Below, piece by piece: positions 4,994 to 29,526 of a stretch of 64,000 bases of DNA. A program made the position numbers and the translations under genes. The stretch's first letter is position 1. Each line of letters begins with the position of its first letter. The notes below the pieces were generated by a model that did not search any database, was not told the origin of the DNA, and saw only the letters and a program-made list of their open reading frames with translations. The DNA comes from a virus (taxonomy: Duplodnaviria; Caudoviricetes), in IMG/VR virus record IMGVR_UViG_3300028833_000077. The stretch is one strand, 5' to 3'.

Positions 4994-5032
4994 AAAAATA
5001 AAGGGGAGGCCTAAATGACCTCCCTTATTTCT
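4994..5032. terminator. Bidirectional intrinsic terminator at the strand-convergence point
   Basis: AAAAATAAAGGGGAGG-cctaaatga-CCTCCCTTATTT hairpin with A/T tails on both sides, between convergent genes. Confidence 0.75.
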
Positions 5033-5871
5033 TTCTCTCTATGATAGGCATTGTTGAAGAGTTCCTTGAACTGGTCTTTGCTTTTCGATGCTGCCATCAA
5101 GGCTGTAACTCCTACAATCTGATTCTTCAAGTGCTGTCTTCCTACTTCTGGAGTAAGTGACTGGTGCAGTTTATGCTTCCAATTACCTCCTTCAGTCTTG
5201 CCTGTCTTCTCCTTAAGAGCTTCCAGAACACCTTCAGGCAGGGCCTTGTATACATATAGGTTGGTAAGCATTCCTACCAGCATGGGCTTGGTACTCTTTG
5301 TGGAGTCATAGTCCAGTCCCCATAGCCTGAACATTTCTTGATAGAAATCATTGCTGAAGGTCAACTGCCACTTGGCTACTTCATCAGAGACATAGGCTGC
5401 CAGTATCTTCTGAAGCTCAGTGCTCTCTCGCATTGCCTGATAGCCAGTAGCTTCGTCTACCAGAGCTGTTATGCCCACTCTGGCAAATGACCTCATCAGT
5501 ATTTCACATTGGTCAGCTACAATCATTTGTCTTTTAGTCAATTTGACTTCCCTTCTTGCTTCTAGGAGTAAGTCACATATATCTGCAAGTAAGTCTGCTT
5601 TATAGGCACTTATTCTTTTATCGCCATCATAACAGCTGATTGGAGAAAAATGGGCGCATCCTAAGTTGTTGGCAATGAATGGTTTAAGCCTGTCATTAGA
5701 TAGAAATCTATCAATTTTTGTGCCGGTCCTTTCATTTTCAGTAATTCGGAGTCCCATCTGCATTCCTCTACTAGACAATACTCTGGTACCGTCTTCAAGA
5801 ACATAACAAGGAATGGTTGTTCCTGCAAGGTTCAGTTCACCCTTGCATTTTACTTGATTTGATTTACACAT
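5011..5871 (-). CDS. P63C-domain protein (antirepressor-like DNA-binding protein)
   Basis: IPCYVLEDGTRVLSSRGM, ARVGITALVDEATGYQ, F..DFYQEMFRLWG, KHKLHQSLT match the P63C family pattern. Confidence 0.85.
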   Translation of the reverse strand: MCKSNQVKCKGELNLAGTTIPCYVLEDGTRVLSSRGMQMGLRITENERTGTKIDRFLSNDRLKPFIANNLGCAHFSPISCYDGDKRISAYKADLLADICDLLLEARREVKLTKRQMIVADQCEILMRSFARVGITALVDEATGYQAMRESTELQKILAAYVSDEVAKWQLTFSNDFYQEMFRLWGLDYDSTKSTKPMLVGMLTNLYVYKALPEGVLEALKEKTGKTEGGNWKHKLHQSLTPEVGRQHLKNQIVGVTALMAASKSKDQFKELFNNAYHREKEIREVI

Positions 5872-6360
5872 ATTATTAGAATTTATTTATTGATTGGTAT
5901 TTAATTATCAACAAGACATAGTACGTCCCTAAGAGAATCCTCTGGCTCATTATCCTGAAACTTCCACTGCCCGGTCAATATTCAGCTAACTCGTAGCTTT
6001 TCAGCGCTTGCCCCTAACCCCCGTTTACCCTGTACCTTTCATTTCAACATAGTTTGGTGGGGAACAGTTTTATATTCAGAAAGTTTGTGACCTATCGGGG
6101 CTTGAGCTTTCTATCTCAGGACTATGTGCTGTCCCTACAACCCGACTTCTGAGCCTCTATATATCCACTGGACCTTACTAGGCTGTTCATGGGACTATGT
6201 CTCCCAAGGGTCTAAAGTAACTGGTATAAAAACCAGTAAACGAAAAAATTGCAGTCCTAATGTGACGAACAGACTGCAATTATTCCCATTTACTGGTATA
6301 GTTGTCAGGATTTCTCCTGTCAATTTCGGTATGTCTTTGCAGTTATCGTCACTTAACTAC
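5872..6360 (-). ncRNA. Long structured 5' leader, copy 1 (attenuator-like)
   Basis: Nested hairpin 6232-6297 with U-tract; upstream segment 6337-6352 complementary to its stem and loop; homologous to 29323-29438. Confidence 0.6.
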
Positions 6361-6364
6361 GGTG

Positions 6365-6372
6365 CAAAGGTA
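6365..6372 (-). promoter_or_regulatory. Bacteroidetes sigma-A -7 box (TACCTTTG)
   Basis: Matches TAnnTTTG, in AT-rich intergenic DNA ahead of the leader and P63C gene. Confidence 0.7.
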
Positions 6373-6460
6373 CACATTTATATTGAATTGATAGTCATTT
6401 CGTTAGTTAATAATCATTAAAGTAATGTTCTAAGTCATATTAATATATAGTGGCTGGTAT

Positions 6461-6496
6461 AAAATAAAGAGGACACACTTAATAGTATGCCCTCCA
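6461..6496 (-). terminator. Intrinsic terminator after the 1497-aa gene
   Basis: Minus strand GGAGGGCATAC-tattaa-GTGTGTCCTCT followed by TTATTTT. Confidence 0.65.
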
Positions 6497-6529: not shown

Positions 6530-9500
6530 TTAGTCATCTTTTTCAAACATTGAGAACATGGAGTCATCAAAGTCGATGGCTTTATATATCTGAGGTAGAT
6601 ATGGAGTTGCTTGGAATGCATCTCTTGAGTACTCTGACCATCCTTGGTACCGCCCTGTCTGCACCTCATCGAATATATTATATATTTCTACCATTTTTCT
6701 CATCCTATCAAACGTGGATACCGCTGCAGCAGGCTGCTGCATAAGAGTGATCAGATTCTTGAAAAACATTGGGCCTGGTACTGATGCCCCTACCTCAAGG
6801 TACATTCTTCTTATTTGATAAAGAGCCATCTTATTGAGCCAGCTCCTGTCATAGTCCTTAACCTTTCCGCCAAGTCTTACAAGGGTAAGCAACATCATAA
6901 AGAGGGATACCTCTGCACATGCTCTTCTGATGTTTGCCAGTTCATGGGGTCCTAGCTTTCCTTCAATATAAGCCTTGTTGAATTCTGCCTGTCCCTTAAT
7001 AATGTCCTTAGAGAGCTGTTGCATGAACTTGTATACAGTTACATAATATCCTTCCCTCCACTGTTCAAGGTCAGCATCATAGTGGGCTCCTGCAAATCTT
7101 CTCATATAATGGGCAGGCATCCACTGACGGAACTGCATGATAAGTCTGCCCCAGGCTTTCTTATGTATTGCACCTTTGTCATTAACTCCAAAGGCACCAT
7201 TCAAAGAATCATTGACTTTACGGATAACTTTCTTCTTTTTGAATATGTATCTTTGGGTAGCATTGTCACTAAGATTCTTCAACGCTACTGTCTCCTTCTT
7301 AATCCTGCCATTTTCATCTCTTACAGGCTTGCCGTAGTTTGGGTTCTTGCTGAATACCCGCCCTTTATCGTCCTTGTAAGTACCTCCTGAAAGGTCTATC
7401 ACATCCTTTTCATAGGCAAGATTCTCCTCTAACTCCAATTTATATATGCCTCTATCATCTTTTACCACCTTAAGAGCATCGTAAAGACTGATTTTTTCTC
7501 CTGCCTTATGCCCATTGGTGTCTTTCGTATACACAAGTTTGGTTGCATTCAGGATGGCCAGCATGGTCTGGCAATGGAGGATATGCTCTCCTGCATTCAT
7601 TCCAATGAACCCTAGAGCATTGTTACCTAGTATTCTTGATAATATATGCTGACTGTGGTGGGTATCCCTCAGACTGTCATAGTAGTCTCCCATAGGATCG
7701 AACATTTGTATAAGCAGGCTGAGTTTGTTTTTCTTGACGGGTTCTGCTATTTCAGCCATACATCCTGGAAGCAAAGCACCGTATTGCCTTACAGCCTTTG
7801 CATAATCTTGAGCACCGAAGTACTCCCCGCCTGCCGCTTCTATCCACTGTTGTATCTTACCTACAGCTACATTGGATAGAGTAGAGAATAGGTTGAGGCC
7901 AAGCCCAAGAAGGCCTGTATAGTCTTTAATGGCATCAAGGGTCTTGGCATAGTCAATATTGACACCGAAGGCCTCCAGTCCTCCCATATCCTCCTTCCTT
8001 TCTTCATAGATGACTGAATCCACGTAGTCATCTAGTCTGTCTATGGTATTTGTTCCATTGCCTGCTCTTTCCACAAATCCCTTATATATTCTGTCAAATG
8101 CTTGGAATCTAGAATATAGTGGGCCATTTCCCTTATTTTCCCAGAAAGTTCTCTGATCCCTTACATAATCCCTTCCTACTTCAATAATGTCTACTACCTC
8201 ATTCATCTTCTCATAGTTGACAGCCATGGCACTATATGCAGTCATGCATCCTGAGAAGTCGGTTGACAGCATCTTCATATCCTTAAGTCTACGAGTGTAA
8301 TAGATGGGCAGTTTCTGTATCCTATGATGGGCGAAGTCTGTATCCACTAAATAGAAGTTCTCCGAAGAGATTCTGCTCAATATTTCTTTGGCACAGTCTG
8401 ATGCTACACTACTGAATTTCTCATTACTACTCTTGGCATTCCTCTTGAACAGCTTAATAACCCTTCTGATGTCTCTTGGGTTGATGACAGAATGTATATC
8501 TTCATCAGTGGCATCTGCCAATGTATTGATAATCTCAACTGCGGCCTTCTGCTCGTTTTCCTCCCTAAGTATAATCTCTTCTATAGTCTTTTGGAAGTCT
8601 TCATTTGTTCCGAATCCTATATCATCAGGCCTTCTACTGAATTTACGAACAAACTGTTCCTTGGTGGCCTTTGCTATGTTCCCAGTGGAATTATCCAATA
8701 TACCCTCCACAAAATCCTTGCTGATGTAGATGGCCCTGTATATAGCCTGCCCTCTATGGGGAATCTTACACATCATTTCCTTTTTCAGCTCTATCATGGC
8801 ATTATAGTAGTCCCTTTGTGCAGGAGCAAGCCTTTCTATACGATCAGCATATTTGGAGTATACTGCAGGGTTTGGAACCATTTCATATACAGCCTCTGGG
8901 TATTTCCTCATTGTCTTGCTTAAGTCATTCTTATGGGAGTTGTAATAATCCTCTACTTCCTTATTGATAAAGATTGGTATAAGTCTCTTGTTCCCTTCCT
9001 TATCTATTTTATTCTTCCACTTTTGCAGAGCGGCCCTGTACTTCTCTCCTGTTATTCCTGCATCTCTCAGTTCCTGCTGTTTTGCATACAGTTCTTGGTT
9101 ATATGTCTCCCAGTCATAGATACTGATGATTCTTCCTGTGGGAACTTCCTCACTGTCTTTTTCCAACATAAAGTCTGAAGAGAATCCTGCCCTTCTCAGC
9201 TTGTCGTCCTCCATAGAAATCCTTGCATTGATGTCAATCATCTCCATATCCCTGTGATACTGTTGGTTTTTGACAATGGCATCAAACAATGTCAATAGTG
9301 AGTCGTCTGCATCACTGAGAGCAGACAGCCATCTGTCAACAAGGTTGATATCCTTTTCAGCATGCTCTAGAATCTCTTTAAGAGACATGACTTCATTTCT
9401 CCTTGAGCCTATTCCACGAACAGTATCCTCTGCATAGACAGTCCTTGATACAGCATAAAGAATATTAAAAGCAGAATCATGGGCGAATTTATTTAGCTTG

Positions 9501-11023
9501 TTTGCCAAGTCTCTGCTTATTTTTGCTTCATCTGCAAGATCTTTTGCAAATTCAGGATCCATGCCAGCAGGCAGATTCTCAGGATCATCGAATGTTGCAA
9601 TCTCATCCAACAGTTCTGCATATCCTTCTGTTGCCTCAGTGATGCTTCTGCAGCATTTGGCAATTTCCCTAGCTGTTCTTATCTGGTCAAGACCATTCAC
9701 TTTATCCACCTCTTCTAACTCCTGGGTTCTAGTAGCCAGTTTAACGAACCTTACCTGACAATCCTTTATGAACATCATGATGCTGCTTGCTTGGTCAGCA
9801 ATGCTCTCACTCTCTGCAGCATTCCTAATGTCTATATGGCTTTTCGCAGAGTCTGTGGATACTCTGCCTGTCATGGAAGACTGCCTCTCTGACTTGATCA
9901 TTCCTGCATTGAGTGTCAAGGCAGCATTGGCCAGTTTTTCTACGGTGTTGAACTCCTCCTTTATCTTGTAAAGGGTCTTTGCATTGATAATGCTGTTCTT
10001 GTCTACAAGCCTGACTACCTCTCCTGATACTATCATATTATAGATTCCTGCAATGGAATCGTGGGCACGTTCTTGAGCATCCCTATACTTCTTGTTTGTA
10101 ATCTGAGAGAAGAATTCCTTAGCCCAATTCCACAGCCTCTGTAGTAGGGTCTGCCCTTTCTGCATAGTTTCAGGCTTTATGGTGCCCTTATTGGTAATAA
10201 ACTGTGCAAGCATTTGTCCTGCGGCTTCCTTCTTAAGCCTCATGGTGTCCCCATTATACTCATTGTAGTAATCTTCATACTTGCCCCCAAGTACTTCGTG
10301 CAGAACATCTTCATCAATAGTTCTAAGGAGTCTCTGTACTAATGGGTTTGTTATTAGCCCCTCTATAATGAGGTGACTGAACTCTTCAGGAAGGGCCTCT
10401 TCGCCAAGCTCTCCTTTTGCGATTTGTATAATCTGCAGCAGACCGTCTGAGAATGTTGCTTCTTCTGGGGCAAACATGCCAGCAAACTTAGGATCATTGA
10501 TGAAGCTTATGTCGAACCCCATAGACCTCAGTAGATTGAGCAGCTGATTATTTAGGGCATTATTAAATGATTGTTGCCTTGCAGCTTCAATGTTTGGGGC
10601 CGTCCTGTTCAACACTTTGATGGTATGCCCGTCTCCTGCCCTTTCCATGATTGCAACATAGTTTTCCTCTTTGGAGTTGAAATCATTGATTTTCTGGACA
10701 GCCTCTTGTTTAGAGAAAGTCTGTCCTTTGAAACCATAGTCTCTTGCTGCCTCTTCAGCACCCTTCTGGTGTTCATATGCATCCTCCAATCCAAGAGCCT
10801 TGATGAGAGAGGGGAAAGTCACTTCCCCTAACTCATCATACTCTACAGTACCTCCGTAGTCCCTCTTGAACTCGGAGGTCTTTGTATAGGCCCACATTCT
10901 CCAGGCACCGTCATTGTCCTGCACGGCAGCCTTTATGTCCTTGAATAACTTGCTTGGCACTTCCTCTATTTGAGTACCTTTCCTCCTGAACACCACAGGA
11001 GTCAGCTTACATGAATCACCCAT
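6530..11023 (-). CDS. Large virion cargo/ejection protein with degenerate zincin-like motif
   Basis: 1497 aa directly downstream of RNAP; LPEEFSHLIIE...KEAAGQ resembles HExxH...E; helical C-terminus with MQFRQW motif as in crAss large proteins. Confidence 0.7.
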   Translation of the reverse strand: MGDSCKLTPVVFRRKGTQIEEVPSKLFKDIKAAVQDNDGAWRMWAYTKTSEFKRDYGGTVEYDELGEVTFPSLIKALGLEDAYEHQKGAEEAARDYGFKGQTFSKQEAVQKINDFNSKEENYVAIMERAGDGHTIKVLNRTAPNIEAARQQSFNNALNNQLLNLLRSMGFDISFINDPKFAGMFAPEEATFSDGLLQIIQIAKGELGEEALPEEFSHLIIEGLITNPLVQRLLRTIDEDVLHEVLGGKYEDYYNEYNGDTMRLKKEAAGQMLAQFITNKGTIKPETMQKGQTLLQRLWNWAKEFFSQITNKKYRDAQERAHDSIAGIYNMIVSGEVVRLVDKNSIINAKTLYKIKEEFNTVEKLANAALTLNAGMIKSERQSSMTGRVSTDSAKSHIDIRNAAESESIADQASSIMMFIKDCQVRFVKLATRTQELEEVDKVNGLDQIRTAREIAKCCRSITEATEGYAELLDEIATFDDPENLPAGMDPEFAKDLADEAKISRDLANKLNKFAHDSAFNILYAVSRTVYAEDTVRGIGSRRNEVMSLKEILEHAEKDINLVDRWLSALSDADDSLLTLFDAIVKNQQYHRDMEMIDINARISMEDDKLRRAGFSSDFMLEKDSEEVPTGRIISIYDWETYNQELYAKQQELRDAGITGEKYRAALQKWKNKIDKEGNKRLIPIFINKEVEDYYNSHKNDLSKTMRKYPEAVYEMVPNPAVYSKYADRIERLAPAQRDYYNAMIELKKEMMCKIPHRGQAIYRAIYISKDFVEGILDNSTGNIAKATKEQFVRKFSRRPDDIGFGTNEDFQKTIEEIILREENEQKAAVEIINTLADATDEDIHSVINPRDIRRVIKLFKRNAKSSNEKFSSVASDCAKEILSRISSENFYLVDTDFAHHRIQKLPIYYTRRLKDMKMLSTDFSGCMTAYSAMAVNYEKMNEVVDIIEVGRDYVRDQRTFWENKGNGPLYSRFQAFDRIYKGFVERAGNGTNTIDRLDDYVDSVIYEERKEDMGGLEAFGVNIDYAKTLDAIKDYTGLLGLGLNLFSTLSNVAVGKIQQWIEAAGGEYFGAQDYAKAVRQYGALLPGCMAEIAEPVKKNKLSLLIQMFDPMGDYYDSLRDTHHSQHILSRILGNNALGFIGMNAGEHILHCQTMLAILNATKLVYTKDTNGHKAGEKISLYDALKVVKDDRGIYKLELEENLAYEKDVIDLSGGTYKDDKGRVFSKNPNYGKPVRDENGRIKKETVALKNLSDNATQRYIFKKKKVIRKVNDSLNGAFGVNDKGAIHKKAWGRLIMQFRQWMPAHYMRRFAGAHYDADLEQWREGYYVTVYKFMQQLSKDIIKGQAEFNKAYIEGKLGPHELANIRRACAEVSLFMMLLTLVRLGGKVKDYDRSWLNKMALYQIRRMYLEVGASVPGPMFFKNLITLMQQPAAAVSTFDRMRKMVEIYNIFDEVQTGRYQGWSEYSRDAFQATPYLPQIYKAIDFDDSMFSMFEKDD

Positions 11024-20455: not shown

Positions 20456-20474
20456 TATTATAATGTTTATTAGG

Positions 20475-28103: not shown

Positions 28104-28919
28104 TCAAGTCTTCTTGGTCTTCCTTCTAGTCTTCCTCTTAGGTGGAGCTGTTTCTTCCTGAGAAGCCTCTTCTACAGGAGGGGCAATCATCTTGGCATAC
28201 TCAGTCCTTGCCATCCTGTCACACTCTTCATTGTACCTATCTCCTGCATGGCCTCTTACCCATTTCAGTGTAGCTTTGATACCTTTGGCTCTGCATATTG
28301 ACCTATATCTGTCAACTATGTCAAGGTTCTCAGATGCTTCCCATTTCCCACTGAGCACATTGATGCTGTACTGTGAGTCTGAATGAATAACCACTTCAGC
28401 CCCATTGGGAAGGGAGTTCACTACACTGACGATGGCAAGCAGTTCCATCCTGTTTGTTGTGGTGTGGAGGAATCCCTTTGATGTCCTCTTGTACTCATTG
28501 CCATCCTCACCTATTATTATATAGGCAGAACCCCCAGGCTTGTCAGGATGGAACCAGTTGCCACTGCCATCAGTCCATGCAATGAACTTCTTCTGAGTGC
28601 TCTTGTTGGATGCAATCAGATTGTTCTGCATCACCTTGAAGGCATTTATATCCAGCTTGTCCAAGTACCCTGAAGTGCTTGCATTCTTGTGTGGCTCATA
28701 CCACCATCTTACCATGACGGTGTAGTAATCCACAAAGACCTCCATCTTAGAAGGCACACCTTTCGCCTTGCCCCAAACCTTAGTGAAGATGTCTCTATTG
28801 TAATCATCATCCCTGTAATACTTGAAGCCTTCTGAAGTCAGATAGTCTCTAAGTTCTCCATTTGTCATGTTTGTTATTGCTGTTTTCAATATTGTCAGTT
28901 TACTACTGCTCTCTTCCAT
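28104..28919 (-). CDS. rnhA: Ribonuclease HI with extra N-terminal domain (start may be ATG at 28868)
   Basis: WTDGS, TTNRMELLA, IHSDSQY, WVRGHAG, NEECDRMA. Confidence 0.9.
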   Translation of the reverse strand: MEESSSKLTILKTAITNMTNGELRDYLTSEGFKYYRDDDYNRDIFTKVWGKAKGVPSKMEVFVDYYTVMVRWWYEPHKNASTSGYLDKLDINAFKVMQNNLIASNKSTQKKFIAWTDGSGNWFHPDKPGGSAYIIIGEDGNEYKRTSKGFLHTTTNRMELLAIVSVVNSLPNGAEVVIHSDSQYSINVLSGKWEASENLDIVDRYRSICRAKGIKATLKWVRGHAGDRYNEECDRMARTEYAKMIAPPVEEASQEETAPPKRKTRRKTKKT

Positions 28920-29446
28920 CAGCCGTGCAGACCAGGTAATCAGGCTTCTTAGCTGATATCAGAGAGCTTCTTCCTGGTGTGTAAAGAAATTTCACTCACC
29001 AGTTTAACAGAACCTCTCTGTCTCTCTCAGATTGATGGATTTCCAACCAGTATAAACGAGTATCCCCCCTTCAACCAGACTGACTATCTAACAGGTTAAG
29101 CCAGCTTCAGATGTGTGTAGAGTTGCCTGTCTCTGGTGCTGTAGTCATCTTCCAAGCCCCACTATCTCGGTGTGCACCTCCTTGCTGCGAGTGTTCAGCT
29201 CCAACAGCCTAGTACCGATTTATCCCATGCTCCCTAGCGAACCCAGCAGGAACTTCCTCTCTTAACTGGTAATGCGAAGCATGTTTAGTAATCGAGGGTG
29301 GTTATCTGAATAAAGGAAAAATCCAGTAAACAGAAAAATTGCAACCCTATAGTAGCTCACAGGTTGCAATTCTCTCCATTTACTGGTATATGAGAAAAAA
29401 TCCTTCTACCCAATTATGTCGAAGCAATCAGAGCTACTTGATTACG
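28920..29446 (-). ncRNA. Long structured 5' leader, copy 2 (attenuator-like)
   Basis: Nested hairpin 29323-29386; upstream 29424-29438 complementary to its loop and stem; homologous to copy 1. Confidence 0.6.
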
Positions 29447-29450
29447 TGGA

Positions 29451-29458
29451 CAAAGGTA
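29451..29458 (-). promoter_or_regulatory. Bacteroidetes -7 box (TACCTTTG)
   Basis: AATGTGTACCTTTG identical to the promoter at 6365-6378. Confidence 0.7.
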
Positions 29459-29526
29459 CACATTATAGGTTATATAGTCAAGGACCTAAGAACGATACTA
29501 AGGTCAGAGTAGGATTACCCTTAGAT

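What the first reader, a model, noticed from the sequence alone, without database searches (positions are those of the whole stretch)
6232..6378. Paralogous covarying attenuator-like leader, copy 1 (upstream of P63C)
Seen (minus strand): promoter AATGTGTACCTTTG, then about 12 nt later GTGACGA-TA-ACTGCAA. About 40 nt further on is a nested hairpin ACCAGTAAA..AATTGCAGTC-[TGTTCGTCACATTAG]-GACTGCAATT-TTTT..TTTACTGGT-TTTT. The early segment is complementary to the 5' stem strand plus the loop (TTGCAGT..TCGTCAC), so terminator and anti-terminator folds are mutually exclusive. A second copy 23 kb away keeps the scaffold but changes loop and early segment together. Inference: a family of RNA switches with locus-specific 'address' sequences, conceptually like the P1 C4 and P4 CI antisense immunity RNAs. 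I do not recognise it as described for crAss-like phages.
Basis: partly seen in the sequence, partly recalled or inferred. Interest (0 to 1): 0.8.

Follow-up and report, generated by a model that had tools for sequence, protein, structure and literature searches.

The report
Kissing-loop terminator leader RNA in phage
A rumen crAss-like phage carries two copies of a roughly 135-base RNA leader in which the tip of the first hairpin base-pairs with the tip of a transcription-stop hairpin; related phages keep this pairing through matched mutations, so it is a real, uncatalogued RNA element that probably sets how much transcription reaches the long non-coding RNA and the gene behind it.

Summary
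On the minus strand a Bacteroidota-type promoter (6378-6365) is followed by a weak hairpin P1 (6360-6339), a small hairpin P2, and a 25-26 bp hairpin P3 (6297-6232) with a U5 tract.

Seven bases of the P1 loop pair with the P3 loop. In five distinct homologs (both window copies and three metagenomic phage contigs) this pairing is 100% kept, and 5 of 7 pairs changed on both sides. P1 and P3 covary too. G-U pairs fix the minus strand as the RNA.

There is no match in Rfam (including C4-type families) or in GenBank phages, and none in 17 more distant crAss-like genomes.

In nascent RNA the alternative fold is the minimum-energy structure in all five homologs. However, the loop-loop pairing is also compatible with both hairpins, the extension is weak in copy 2, and the lower 14 bp of the terminator stay free.

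The closest known mechanism is the zipper-type attenuator of plasmid pLS20.

The leader is modular: it precedes three unrelated non-coding stretches of 330-400 nt.

This scan had already noted copy 2 in this genome and similar designs in other phages.

Function remains inferred.

The parts
6468..6495 (-). Terminator-like hairpin plus T tract that closes the upstream 1497-aa gene. It makes the leader a separate transcription unit.
   Evidence: 12-bp stem, TTATTTTATA tail; ORF 6530-11023
6365..6378 (-). Promoter. AATGTGTACCTTTG contains the Bacteroidota -7 box TAnnTTTG (TACCTTTG, 6372-6365).
   Evidence: Identical 14-mer at copy 2. The box is kept in all five homologs (TACCTTTG, TACTTTTG, TATCTTTG). 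The same motif lies just upstream of other minus-strand genes at 20473, 41815, 49039 and 55122. The consensus itself is own knowledge.
6339..6360 (-). P1, a weak 5'-terminal hairpin: GUAGUUA / UAACUGC with the 8-nt loop L1 (6353-6346). GUGACGA (6352-6346) is the 'address'.
   Evidence: MFE fold. 7 pairs, 100% paired, 3 with double changes. -4.5 to -5.0 kcal/mol.
6302..6323 (-). P2, a small variable hairpin (CAGGA-GAAA-UCCUG core) in a poorly conserved linker.
   Evidence: 8 pairs, 87% paired, 6 with double changes; the alignment is uncertain here
6232..6297 (-). P3, a 25-26 bp hairpin: lower stem 14 bp, one bulge, upper stem 11 bp. Loop L3 is at 6270-6258 and contains UCGUCAC (6268-6262), which pairs with L1.
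   Evidence: 25 pairs, 99% paired, 3 double changes and several G-U/G-C switches. About -30 kcal/mol.
6228..6232 (-). U5 tract directly after P3. Together with P3 it has the form of an intrinsic terminator.
   Evidence: Sequence. A run of 5 U is kept in all five homologs.
6220..6225 (-). ACCAGU just after the U tract. It is complementary to the last 6 nt of the P3 3' strand, giving a small 'post-terminator' hairpin with the U tract in its loop.
   Evidence: -7.8, -9.7, -7.3, -4.6, -3.3 kcal/mol in the five homologs. Matched changes in L121 (ACUGGC/GCCAGU) and L139 (UCUGGU/ACCAGA).
5895..6222 (-). Conserved non-coding RNA of about 330 nt behind the leader: a 5' domain of about 90 nt plus a domain of about 250 nt closed by a long-range helix. 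It has no promoter box of its own.
   Evidence: Conserved in L121 and L139 with indels of 13 and 22 nt. 79 predicted pairs, 11 with double changes against 0-3 in slid controls. No ORF under table 11, TAG=Q or TGA=W. RNA-library contigs at 100% identity.
5011..5871 (-). P63C-domain gene, the first ORF behind leader copy 1. A terminator-like site follows at 5024-5004.
   Evidence: Pfam PF10546, E 3e-27
29314..29471 (-). Paralogous leader copy 2 (address GUAGCUC / GAGCUAC). It is followed by an unrelated non-coding stretch of about 400 nt and an RNase H gene (28919-28104).
   Evidence: 159 bits; PF00075

Best explanation
This is a self-contained leader RNA module of about 135 nt, transcribed from a host-type (Bacteroidota -7 box) promoter. 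It works as a transcription attenuator in front of a long non-coding RNA and the next gene.

Shown:
- The RNA has a weak 5'-terminal hairpin P1, a small hairpin P2, and a very stable hairpin P3 followed by U5, which has the form of an intrinsic terminator.
- Seven bases (8 in the copy-2 type) of the P1 loop pair with the P3 loop, and this pairing is kept by matched mutations.

Inferred:
- As the RNA is made, P1 forms first.
- When the P3 loop emerges it kisses the P1 loop.
- In copy 1 this contact can spread into a 7+7 bp duplex (P1 3' strand with the upper 5' strand of P3). That duplex melts P1 and delays closure of the upper terminator stem.
- When the 3' strand of P3 is out, it displaces this duplex. 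The final fold is then P1 + P3 with the loop-loop kiss.
- The race between the two folds while the polymerase sits on the U tract sets the share of transcripts that stop (a small RNA of about 135 nt) or run on into the ~330-nt structured RNA and the P63C gene.
- What shifts the balance is unknown. It could be a protein or RNA that stabilises P1, a phage antiterminator, or nothing (a fixed ratio).
- The fast-changing loop pair makes each copy pair only with itself.
For: Anatomy and fold.

Covariation in five distinct homologs. P1 is 7/7 paired with 3 double changes. L1-L3 is 7/7 paired with 5 double changes. P3 is 99% paired. Slid controls give only 35-47% paired, and 0 of 500 shuffles reach the observed value. 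The pseudoknot was not in the model that made the alignment.

Strand: G-U pairs in P1 and P3 would be A-C mismatches on the other strand.

Nascent-RNA folds. The alternative duplex (-16 to -24 kcal/mol, against -5 for P1) is the MFE in all five homologs until the 3' end is within 2-14 columns of the end of P3.

Extension pairing: better than shuffles in copy 1 and L121 (p 0.002 and 0.0005).

Transcription unit. There is a terminator before the promoter. No TAnnTTTG box lies between the U tract and the downstream RNA, so the conserved downstream RNA needs read-through.

RNA libraries. A contig of a relative from an RNA library spans 6296-6135, across P3 and the U tract. Exact-identity contigs from two studies cover the downstream RNA.

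Against: - The loop-loop pairing fits the terminator fold as well as the alternative fold, so covariation cannot tell them apart.
- The extension is weak in copy 2 (4 bp, p 0.17), and only one of its pairs covaries. That pair is confounded with P1 and P3.
- The lower 14 bp of P3, the part next to the U tract, are never sequestered.
- RNAfold ignores the kiss, which would favour the terminator fold earlier.
- No 3' ends can be read from contigs. RNA-library contigs may be DNA carry-over.
- Only five sequences from about four phage lineages are available, and no trigger is identified.
Confidence: 0.5

Rival explanations
1. It is a stand-alone small RNA gene. The ~135-nt terminated transcript is the product, and the intramolecular loop-loop kiss is simply its architecture (compaction, nuclease resistance, or a protein-binding shape). 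The RNA acts on an unknown partner, and the downstream RNA is made by leak-through or from an unrecognised promoter.
For: It has its own promoter, a 5'-terminal hairpin, a strong terminator and no ORF. The module is portable and sits before three unrelated downstream sequences. The final MFE fold keeps P1 and P3.
Against: In all five cases it is followed by 330-400 nt without a gene and without a consensus promoter. The P1 3' strand mimics the P3 3' strand in copy 1 (ACUGCAA in both), which a purely architectural kiss does not need. No leader-only RNA contig was seen, though small RNAs are usually lost in such libraries.
Confidence: 0.2
2. It is a self-addressed, trans-acting regulatory or immunity-like RNA, working like P4 CI or the counter-transcripts of pT181-type plasmids. 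The terminated leader, or a processed P3 hairpin, accumulates. Its L3 binds L1 of nascent transcripts of the same locus, blocks the antiterminator duplex and enforces termination. The addresses diverge to avoid cross-talk between the two copies and between co-infecting relatives.
For: The two copies in one genome are orthogonal (-2.0 and -1.6 against -10.8 and -11.7 kcal/mol). The kissing helix changes faster than the stems: 5 of 7 pairs with double changes against 3 of 25 in P3 and 3 of 7 in P1. That is the pattern expected of a specificity determinant. Same-strand complementary segments in a terminated leader are how P4 immunity works (own knowledge).
Against: In the full-length leader L1 and L3 sit on one molecule, so an intramolecular kiss should mask both. 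No third complementary site lies in the transcript or near a start codon. There is no match to the C4-type Rfam families. No processing site is known. Neutral compensatory drift could also give different addresses.
Confidence: 0.12
3. It is a constitutive promoter-proximal terminator that is overridden by a phage-encoded processive antiterminator, like the lambda PR'-6S RNA-tR' unit with Q. The folded leader, or the conserved promoter, would be the loading site.
For: There are two copies with an identical 17-nt promoter core in one genome. A short terminated transcript lies before downstream cargo. P3 is very strong (about -30 kcal/mol), so default termination is likely.
Against: No antiterminator gene was identified here (not searched exhaustively). 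This reading does not explain why the loops must pair, nor why the addresses differ between copies served by one factor.
Confidence: 0.1
4. It is the 5' domain of a long RNA that primes or controls DNA replication, as with ColE1 RNA II and RNase H. The leader fold would decide whether the downstream RNA matures.
For: An RNase H gene follows the leader plus long non-coding RNA in two independent contexts: window copy 2 and L121. Kissing loops control primer maturation in ColE1 (own knowledge). Copy 1 lies next to the GC-skew turning point at about 5-6 kb.
Against: The skew switch coincides with the change of gene strand. Copy 1 in the window and in L139 is not followed by RNase H. No origin features were tested, and there is no antisense partner.
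Confidence: 0.05
5. It is a DNA-level element: inverted repeats that serve as protein operators or recombination sites rather than as RNA.
For: The repeats are inverted at the DNA level. A 19-nt direct repeat flanks the module (D1).
Against: Complementarity is kept while the sequence changes, and two different 'sites' occur in one genome. G-U pairs work on one strand only. The promoter and U tract are oriented with the genes.
Confidence: 0.02

Closest known systems
Zipper-type transcription attenuator cATTpLS20 of Bacillus conjugative plasmid pLS20 (PMC13401043)
   Same: It lies in a long leader after the promoter. [quoted passage not shown] The terminator and antiterminator folds have similar energy. 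Stabilising the weak hairpin is expected to favour termination.
   Different: Here no long central hairpin 'zips' into the antiterminator, because P2 is only 4-5 bp and the lower 5' strand of P3 lies in between. Only the upper stem and loop of the terminator are covered. The covarying core is a loop-loop contact that also fits the terminator fold. The host and element differ (a Bacteroidota phage against Gram-positive plasmids), there is no conAn system, and there is no sequence relation.
P4 CI RNA and P1/P7 C4 antisense immunity RNAs (Rfam C4 RF01695, c4-2, c4-a1b1)
   Same: These are phage leaders in which same-strand complementary segments covary between relatives, give locus- or phage-specific pairing, and are linked to premature termination or blocked expression of downstream genes.
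   Different: There is no Rfam match at E<=10. Both partners sit in hairpin loops of one ~135-nt RNA. There is no extra target site downstream or at a ribosome-binding site. No processing is known. The comparison rests on own knowledge of those systems.
Lambda late unit PR' - 6S RNA - tR' with antiterminator Q
   Same: A promoter is followed within about 130-190 nt by a strong terminator, so a short RNA is made unless the terminator is read through into the cargo.
   Different: Lambda needs no loop-loop pairing. No Q-like factor was found here. Here there are two copies with different loop addresses.
Kissing loop L5-L13 of cobalamin riboswitches
   Same: An intramolecular loop-loop contact links an upstream folded domain to the expression platform.
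   Different: No aptamer is present, there is no Rfam riboswitch match, and the kissing sequence here is hypervariable.
ColE1 RNA I / RNA II and R1 CopA/CopT kissing complexes
   Same: A 7-bp loop-loop nucleation can spread into a longer duplex. Loop bases act as specificity determinants. There is a link to RNase H (ColE1).
   Different: Those partners are antisense transcripts of one DNA segment. Here both loops are on the same strand and the same RNA.
phi29 pRNA
   Same: It is a phage RNA of about 120 nt with two mutually complementary loops whose sequences covary among relatives.
   Different: pRNA loops pair between molecules to build a ring on the packaging motor. There is no Rfam pRNA match here, and the element here ends in a terminator and leads a transcription unit.

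Membership tests
C4 antisense RNA / c4-2 / c4-a1b1 (Rfam) and P4 CI-type immunity RNAs | Match to the family covariance models | tested here: not met
   cmscan of the whole window at gathering scores and of both copies at E<=10 gave only chance miRNA-level hits and no C4-type family.
C4 antisense RNA / c4-2 / c4-a1b1 (Rfam) and P4 CI-type immunity RNAs | Same-strand complementary segments that covary between relatives | tested here: met
   L1-L3: 7 pairs, 100% paired in 5 sequences, 5 with double changes.
C4 antisense RNA / c4-2 / c4-a1b1 (Rfam) and P4 CI-type immunity RNAs | A further target copy downstream (a2/b2 at the ribosome-binding site in P1; seqC in P4) | tested here: not met
   No further 7-mer match to L1 or L3 in the downstream transcript in any of the four loci; window-wide matches are at chance level.
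C4 antisense RNA / c4-2 / c4-a1b1 (Rfam) and P4 CI-type immunity RNAs | Processing of the leader into a small stable RNA that acts in trans | not testable with these tools
   Only contigs of RNA libraries were available; they show no ends.
Intrinsic (factor-independent) terminator | Stable stem directly followed by a U tract | tested here: met
   P3 is about -30 kcal/mol with CUGG then U5, kept in 5 of 5 homologs.
Intrinsic (factor-independent) terminator | RNA 3' ends at the U tract | not testable with these tools
   All runs were kept as contigs. One RNA-library contig of a relative crosses the site.
Zipper-type attenuator (cATTpLS20, PMC13401043) | [quoted passage not shown] | tested here: met
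   Copy 1: L1 plus the P1 3' strand pairs 7+7 bp with L3 plus the upper 5' strand (-20.2 kcal/mol; P1 is -4.8). The extension gives p 0.002. It is weaker in copy 2 (p 0.17).
Zipper-type attenuator (cATTpLS20, PMC13401043) | Long central stem-loop that is extended base pair by base pair into the antiterminator | tested here: not met
   P2 is a 4-5 bp hairpin. About 20 unpaired nt and the lower 5' strand of P3 separate it from the alternative duplex.
Zipper-type attenuator (cATTpLS20, PMC13401043) | Antiterminator excludes the whole terminator hairpin | tested here: not met
   The lower 14 bp of P3 are not part of the alternative duplex.
Leader-peptide (trp-type) attenuator | Conserved short ORF whose translation decides the fold | tested here: not met
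   A 10-codon AUG...UAG frame lies inside P3 in 4 of 5 homologs, but in L129 the stop is lost. The codon changes follow base pairing, not amino acids.
Riboswitch with kissing-loop expression platform (cobalamin class) | Ligand-binding aptamer recognisable by a covariance model | tested here: not met
   No riboswitch family at E<=10.
phi29-type pRNA | Match to the pRNA model; intermolecular loop-loop ring on the packaging motor | tested here: inconclusive
   No Rfam match. Complementary loops are present. Inter- versus intramolecular pairing cannot be told from sequence.

The most novel reading that the evidence does not exclude
The leader is a self-addressed regulatory RNA. The terminated leader, or a processed P3 hairpin, acts in trans only on nascent transcripts that carry the matching P1-loop address. 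Each locus, and each phage lineage, would then have a private negative-feedback or exclusion circuit: a sense-strand analogue of plasmid counter-transcript control and of P4 CI immunity, here in crAss-like phages. The portable leader would install such a circuit in front of any cargo RNA.
Probability: 0.12. Interest if true: 0.8.

Novelty: new variant of a known kind. Interest (0 to 1): 0.6.

Why it matters
crAss-like phages are among the most abundant gut viruses, yet almost nothing is known about how they control their genes after transcription starts. This element is a compact RNA device, well supported by covariation, with three useful properties:
- Its specificity-like loop pair can be reprogrammed (different in two copies of one genome).
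- It is portable (the same leader before three unrelated long non-coding RNAs).
- It makes a clear, testable prediction: L1/L3 mutants and compensatory mutants should change termination at P3.

It also points to a set of long, conserved phage non-coding RNAs, one of them seen in rumen metatranscriptome assemblies, whose roles are unknown. If the design recurs in other Bacteroidota phages, as unchecked notes of this scan suggest, it may be a general way for these phages to gate transcription. Its parts would also be useful for synthetic control in Bacteroides.

Tried and rejected
- **Recoded stop codons.** Reading the gap under TAG=Q or TGA=W gave no credible ORF in the leader or the downstream gap.
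- **Rfam.** Gathering scores on the whole window and E<=10 on both loci gave nothing.
- **GenBank phages (INPHARED).** blastn found no match for either leader or the downstream RNA. tblastn with RNase H found only distant phages.
- **First IMG/VR scan.** A 14-mer pattern was too unspecific and gave 120 chance loci.
- **Later pattern scans.** They found the homologs L121/L131, L129 and L136/L137 only. Two scans of GTDB genome contigs found nothing.
- **Wider crAss-like genomes.** The covariance model found no copy in 15 crAss-like genomes reached through the 1497-aa neighbour (28-41% identity), nor in G002 or G005. The family looks confined to a narrow clade.
- About 60 closer relatives of the neighbouring protein seen therefore could not be fetched. 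This is the main limit on the number of homologs.
One note of this scan speaks of twelve sequences; I could reach only five.
- **Own genome.** No whole genome is held for the window.
- **Downstream regions.** Those of copy 1, copy 2 and L129 share no sequence. None folds better than shuffles (z +0.39, -0.68, +0.24). Thermodynamics alone therefore gives no support for structure there; the support for the copy-1 type comes from covariation.
- **Third target site.** None was found for the loop sequences.
- **Rejected readings.** Leader peptide and DNA-operator readings were considered and rejected (see the membership test and rivals).
- **Uncovered parts in the RNA runs.** These are not evidence of absence.

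Full report
**What is there.**
On the minus strand, the 1497-aa gene (11023-6530) ends with a terminator-like hairpin at 6495-6468. The next ORF is a P63C-domain gene (5871-5011; Pfam E 3e-27). It starts 658 nt further on. No ORF fills this gap under table 11, TAG=Q or TGA=W.

The finding lies at the start of the gap. AATGTGTACCTTTG (6378-6365) carries TACCTTTG. That fits the Bacteroidota -7 box TAnnTTTG (own knowledge). Similar boxes stand just before other minus-strand genes of the window.

- **P1** (6360-6339): GUAGUUA / UAACUGC around the 8-nt loop AGUGACGA.
- **P2** (6323-6302): a small hairpin.
- **P3** (6297-6232): a 25-26 bp hairpin with a 13-nt loop containing UCGUCAC, followed by five U.

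The fold energy is far below shuffles (z -6.5).

**The second copy and other homologs.**
The same module lies at 29471-29314. The two copies are alike only from the promoter to the U tract; the flanks are unrelated.

A covariance model built from three copies finds only these two in the window. Pattern scans of IMG/VR and JGI metagenomes gave three further distinct homologs:
- L121 (the same contig as L131): syntenic with copy 1.
- L129: a 2-kb contig.
- L136/L137/L139: contigs of 108 kb and 24 kb.

There is no match in Rfam or in GenBank phages. There is none in 17 other crAss-like genomes reached through neighbouring proteins, nor in GTDB genome contigs. The family therefore looks confined to a small clade of ruminant-gut crAss-like phages. 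The run search lists sheep and bovine gut samples.

About 60 closer relatives of the neighbouring protein therefore could not be examined.

**Covariation.**
The five sequences were aligned to the model, which did not contain the pseudoknot.

| Homolog | P1 loop (L1) | P3 loop (L3) |
|---|---|---|
| Copy 1 | GUGACGA | UCGUCAC |
| L121 | GUGACGC | GCGUCAC |
| Copy 2 | GUAGCUC | GAGCUAC |
| L139 | GUGACUC | GAGUCAC |
| L129 | AUAGCCC | GGGCUAU |

All 35 cells of this helix are Watson-Crick pairs, and 5 of 7 pairs changed on both sides. P1 is 100% paired with 3 double changes. P3 is 99% paired with 3 double changes plus G-U/G-C switches. Sliding the partners by 1-3 columns drops pairing to 35-47%, and no shuffle reaches the observed values.

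G-U pairs in P1 and P3 would be A-C mismatches on the plus strand, so the minus-strand RNA is the folded molecule.

The kissing helix has changed at a higher share of its pairs (5 of 7) than P1 (3 of 7) or P3 (3 of 25). Within this genome the two copies do not cross-pair: -2.0 and -1.6 kcal/mol against -10.8 and -11.7 for the cognate pairs.

**Switch or kiss?**

Two points support this:
- If the RNA is cut before the 3' strand of P3, the minimum-energy fold in all five homologs melts P1 (-4.5 to -5.0 kcal/mol). It pairs L1 plus the P1 3' strand with the upper 5' strand of P3 plus L3 (-15.8 to -23.6 kcal/mol). This fold stays optimal until the 3' end reaches column 143-155 of the 157-column hairpin. 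The two states are thus balanced near the decision point.
- In copy 1 and L121 the P1 3' strand (ACUGCAA) is identical to the core of the P3 3' strand. This complementarity beats shuffles (p 0.002 and 0.0005).

Four points weaken it:
- The covarying part is a loop-loop contact that is equally possible with both hairpins closed.
- The extension is only 4-6 bp in the copy-2 type (p 0.17 to 0.04). It has one covarying pair, which is tied to changes in P1 and P3.
- The lower 14 bp of P3, next to the U tract, are never sequestered.
- RNAfold cannot credit the kiss to the terminator state.

My reading is a kinetic attenuator. The kiss nucleates a transient competing duplex, and the final state is P1 + P3 + kiss. 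Confidence is about 0.5. The trigger is unknown.

**What the leader leads to.**
Behind copy 1 lies a non-coding stretch of about 330 nt that is conserved in L121 and L139. Its indels of 13 and 22 nt fall in predicted loops. It has 79 predicted pairs, 11 with double changes, against 0-3 in slid controls. Its MFE is no better than shuffles.

No TAnnTTTG box lies between the U tract and this RNA in any of the three phages. It therefore seems to depend on read-through.

In RNA libraries from two studies, exact-identity contigs cover 5934-6185 and 5970-6221. A contig of a relative runs from P2/P3 across the U tract to 6135. This is weak evidence, because contigs show no ends and DNA carry-over is possible.

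The leader is modular:
- L139 joins a copy-2-type leader to the copy-1-type downstream RNA.
- Copy 2 and L129 are followed by two other, unrelated non-coding stretches of 400 and 333 nt.

The first gene behind differs:

| Locus | First gene behind the leader |
|---|---|
| Window copy 1 | P63C-domain gene |
| L121 | RNase H |
| Window copy 2 | RNase H |
| L129 and L139 | Small ORFs |

**Comparison with known systems.**
The nearest experimentally shown mechanism is the zipper-type attenuator of pLS20. [quoted passage not shown] The element here lacks the long central stem and covers only the upper terminator.

P4 CI and P1 C4 (own knowledge) share the idea of same-strand, covarying complementary segments in a terminated leader. 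The family models do not match, however, and no third target site exists.

Lambda PR'-tR' with Q, the cobalamin riboswitch kissing loop, ColE1 RNA I/II and phi29 pRNA each share one feature. No paper in the held library describes such an element in crAss-like phages.

**Earlier notes of this scan.**
These were treated as unchecked leads. They had flagged copy 2 of this genome as a kissing-loop leader, the downstream closed RNA domain, and similar kissing-loop terminator leaders in other phages. One of them pointed me to the pLS20 paper, which I then read.

I reached the P1/kissing model independently, before opening those notes.

**Verdict.**
- It is a new, uncatalogued RNA family and a new variant of the terminator/antiterminator leader theme.
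- Its distribution is narrow and its function is untested.

Noticed in passing
window 5895-6222 (-); L121:6345-6700 (+); L139:1150-1500 (-): A conserved, apparently structured non-coding RNA of about 330 nt lies behind leader copy 1: a 5' domain of about 90 nt plus a domain of about 250 nt closed by a 15-17 bp long-range helix. It has 11 of 79 predicted pairs with compensatory changes, no Rfam match, and an MFE no better than shuffles.
   Followed up: partly
window 6129-6197: This ~70-nt piece of the downstream RNA has much higher summed contig depth than its flanks in bovine and other gut metagenomes, and it appears in several RNA-library contigs. Different sequences follow it beyond 6129-6136. 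It looks like a module shared by several different elements.
   Followed up: partly
window 6220-6241 (-) and the same place in the four other homologs: The last 5-6 nt of the P3 3' strand can pair with a segment just after the U tract (ACUGGU/ACCAGU), with matched changes in L121 and L139. This gives a small hairpin with the U tract in its loop, mutually exclusive with the base of P3. Its role is unknown.
   Followed up: partly
window 6446-6464 and 6213-6231: A 19-nt direct repeat (TTTTATACCAGYYACTWTA on the minus strand, 84% identical) follows both the upstream gene's terminator and the leader's own terminator, so it brackets the leader module. It may be a trace of how the cassette was inserted or is shuffled.
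   Followed up: no
window 6288-6256 (-); 29379-29347 (-): A 10-codon AUG...UAG frame lies inside the P3 5' strand and loop in 4 of 5 homologs (MGIIAVCSSH, MERIATCELL and similar). The stop is lost in L129, and the codon changes track base pairing, so it is probably not a leader peptide.
   Followed up: partly
L139:1500-1700 (-) compared with window copies 1 and 2: Module shuffling: L139 has copy-2-type P1/P3 stems but the copy-1-type downstream RNA. Leader type 2 occurs before three different downstream sequences.
   Followed up: partly
window 28104-28919 (-); L121:6758-7258 (+): An RNase H gene (PF00075) is the first ORF behind 'leader + long non-coding RNA' in two different contexts. This raises the untested idea of a link with RNA-primed replication.
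   Followed up: no
window 59706-59810 (-): Rfam reports a 105-nt tRNA match (45.5 bits) that ARAGORN does not call. It may be a tRNA with an insertion.
   Followed up: no
window about 5000-6000: GC skew changes sign here, at the point where the plus-strand 1647-aa gene and the minus-strand block converge. Copy 1 of the leader lies next to this turning point.
   Followed up: no
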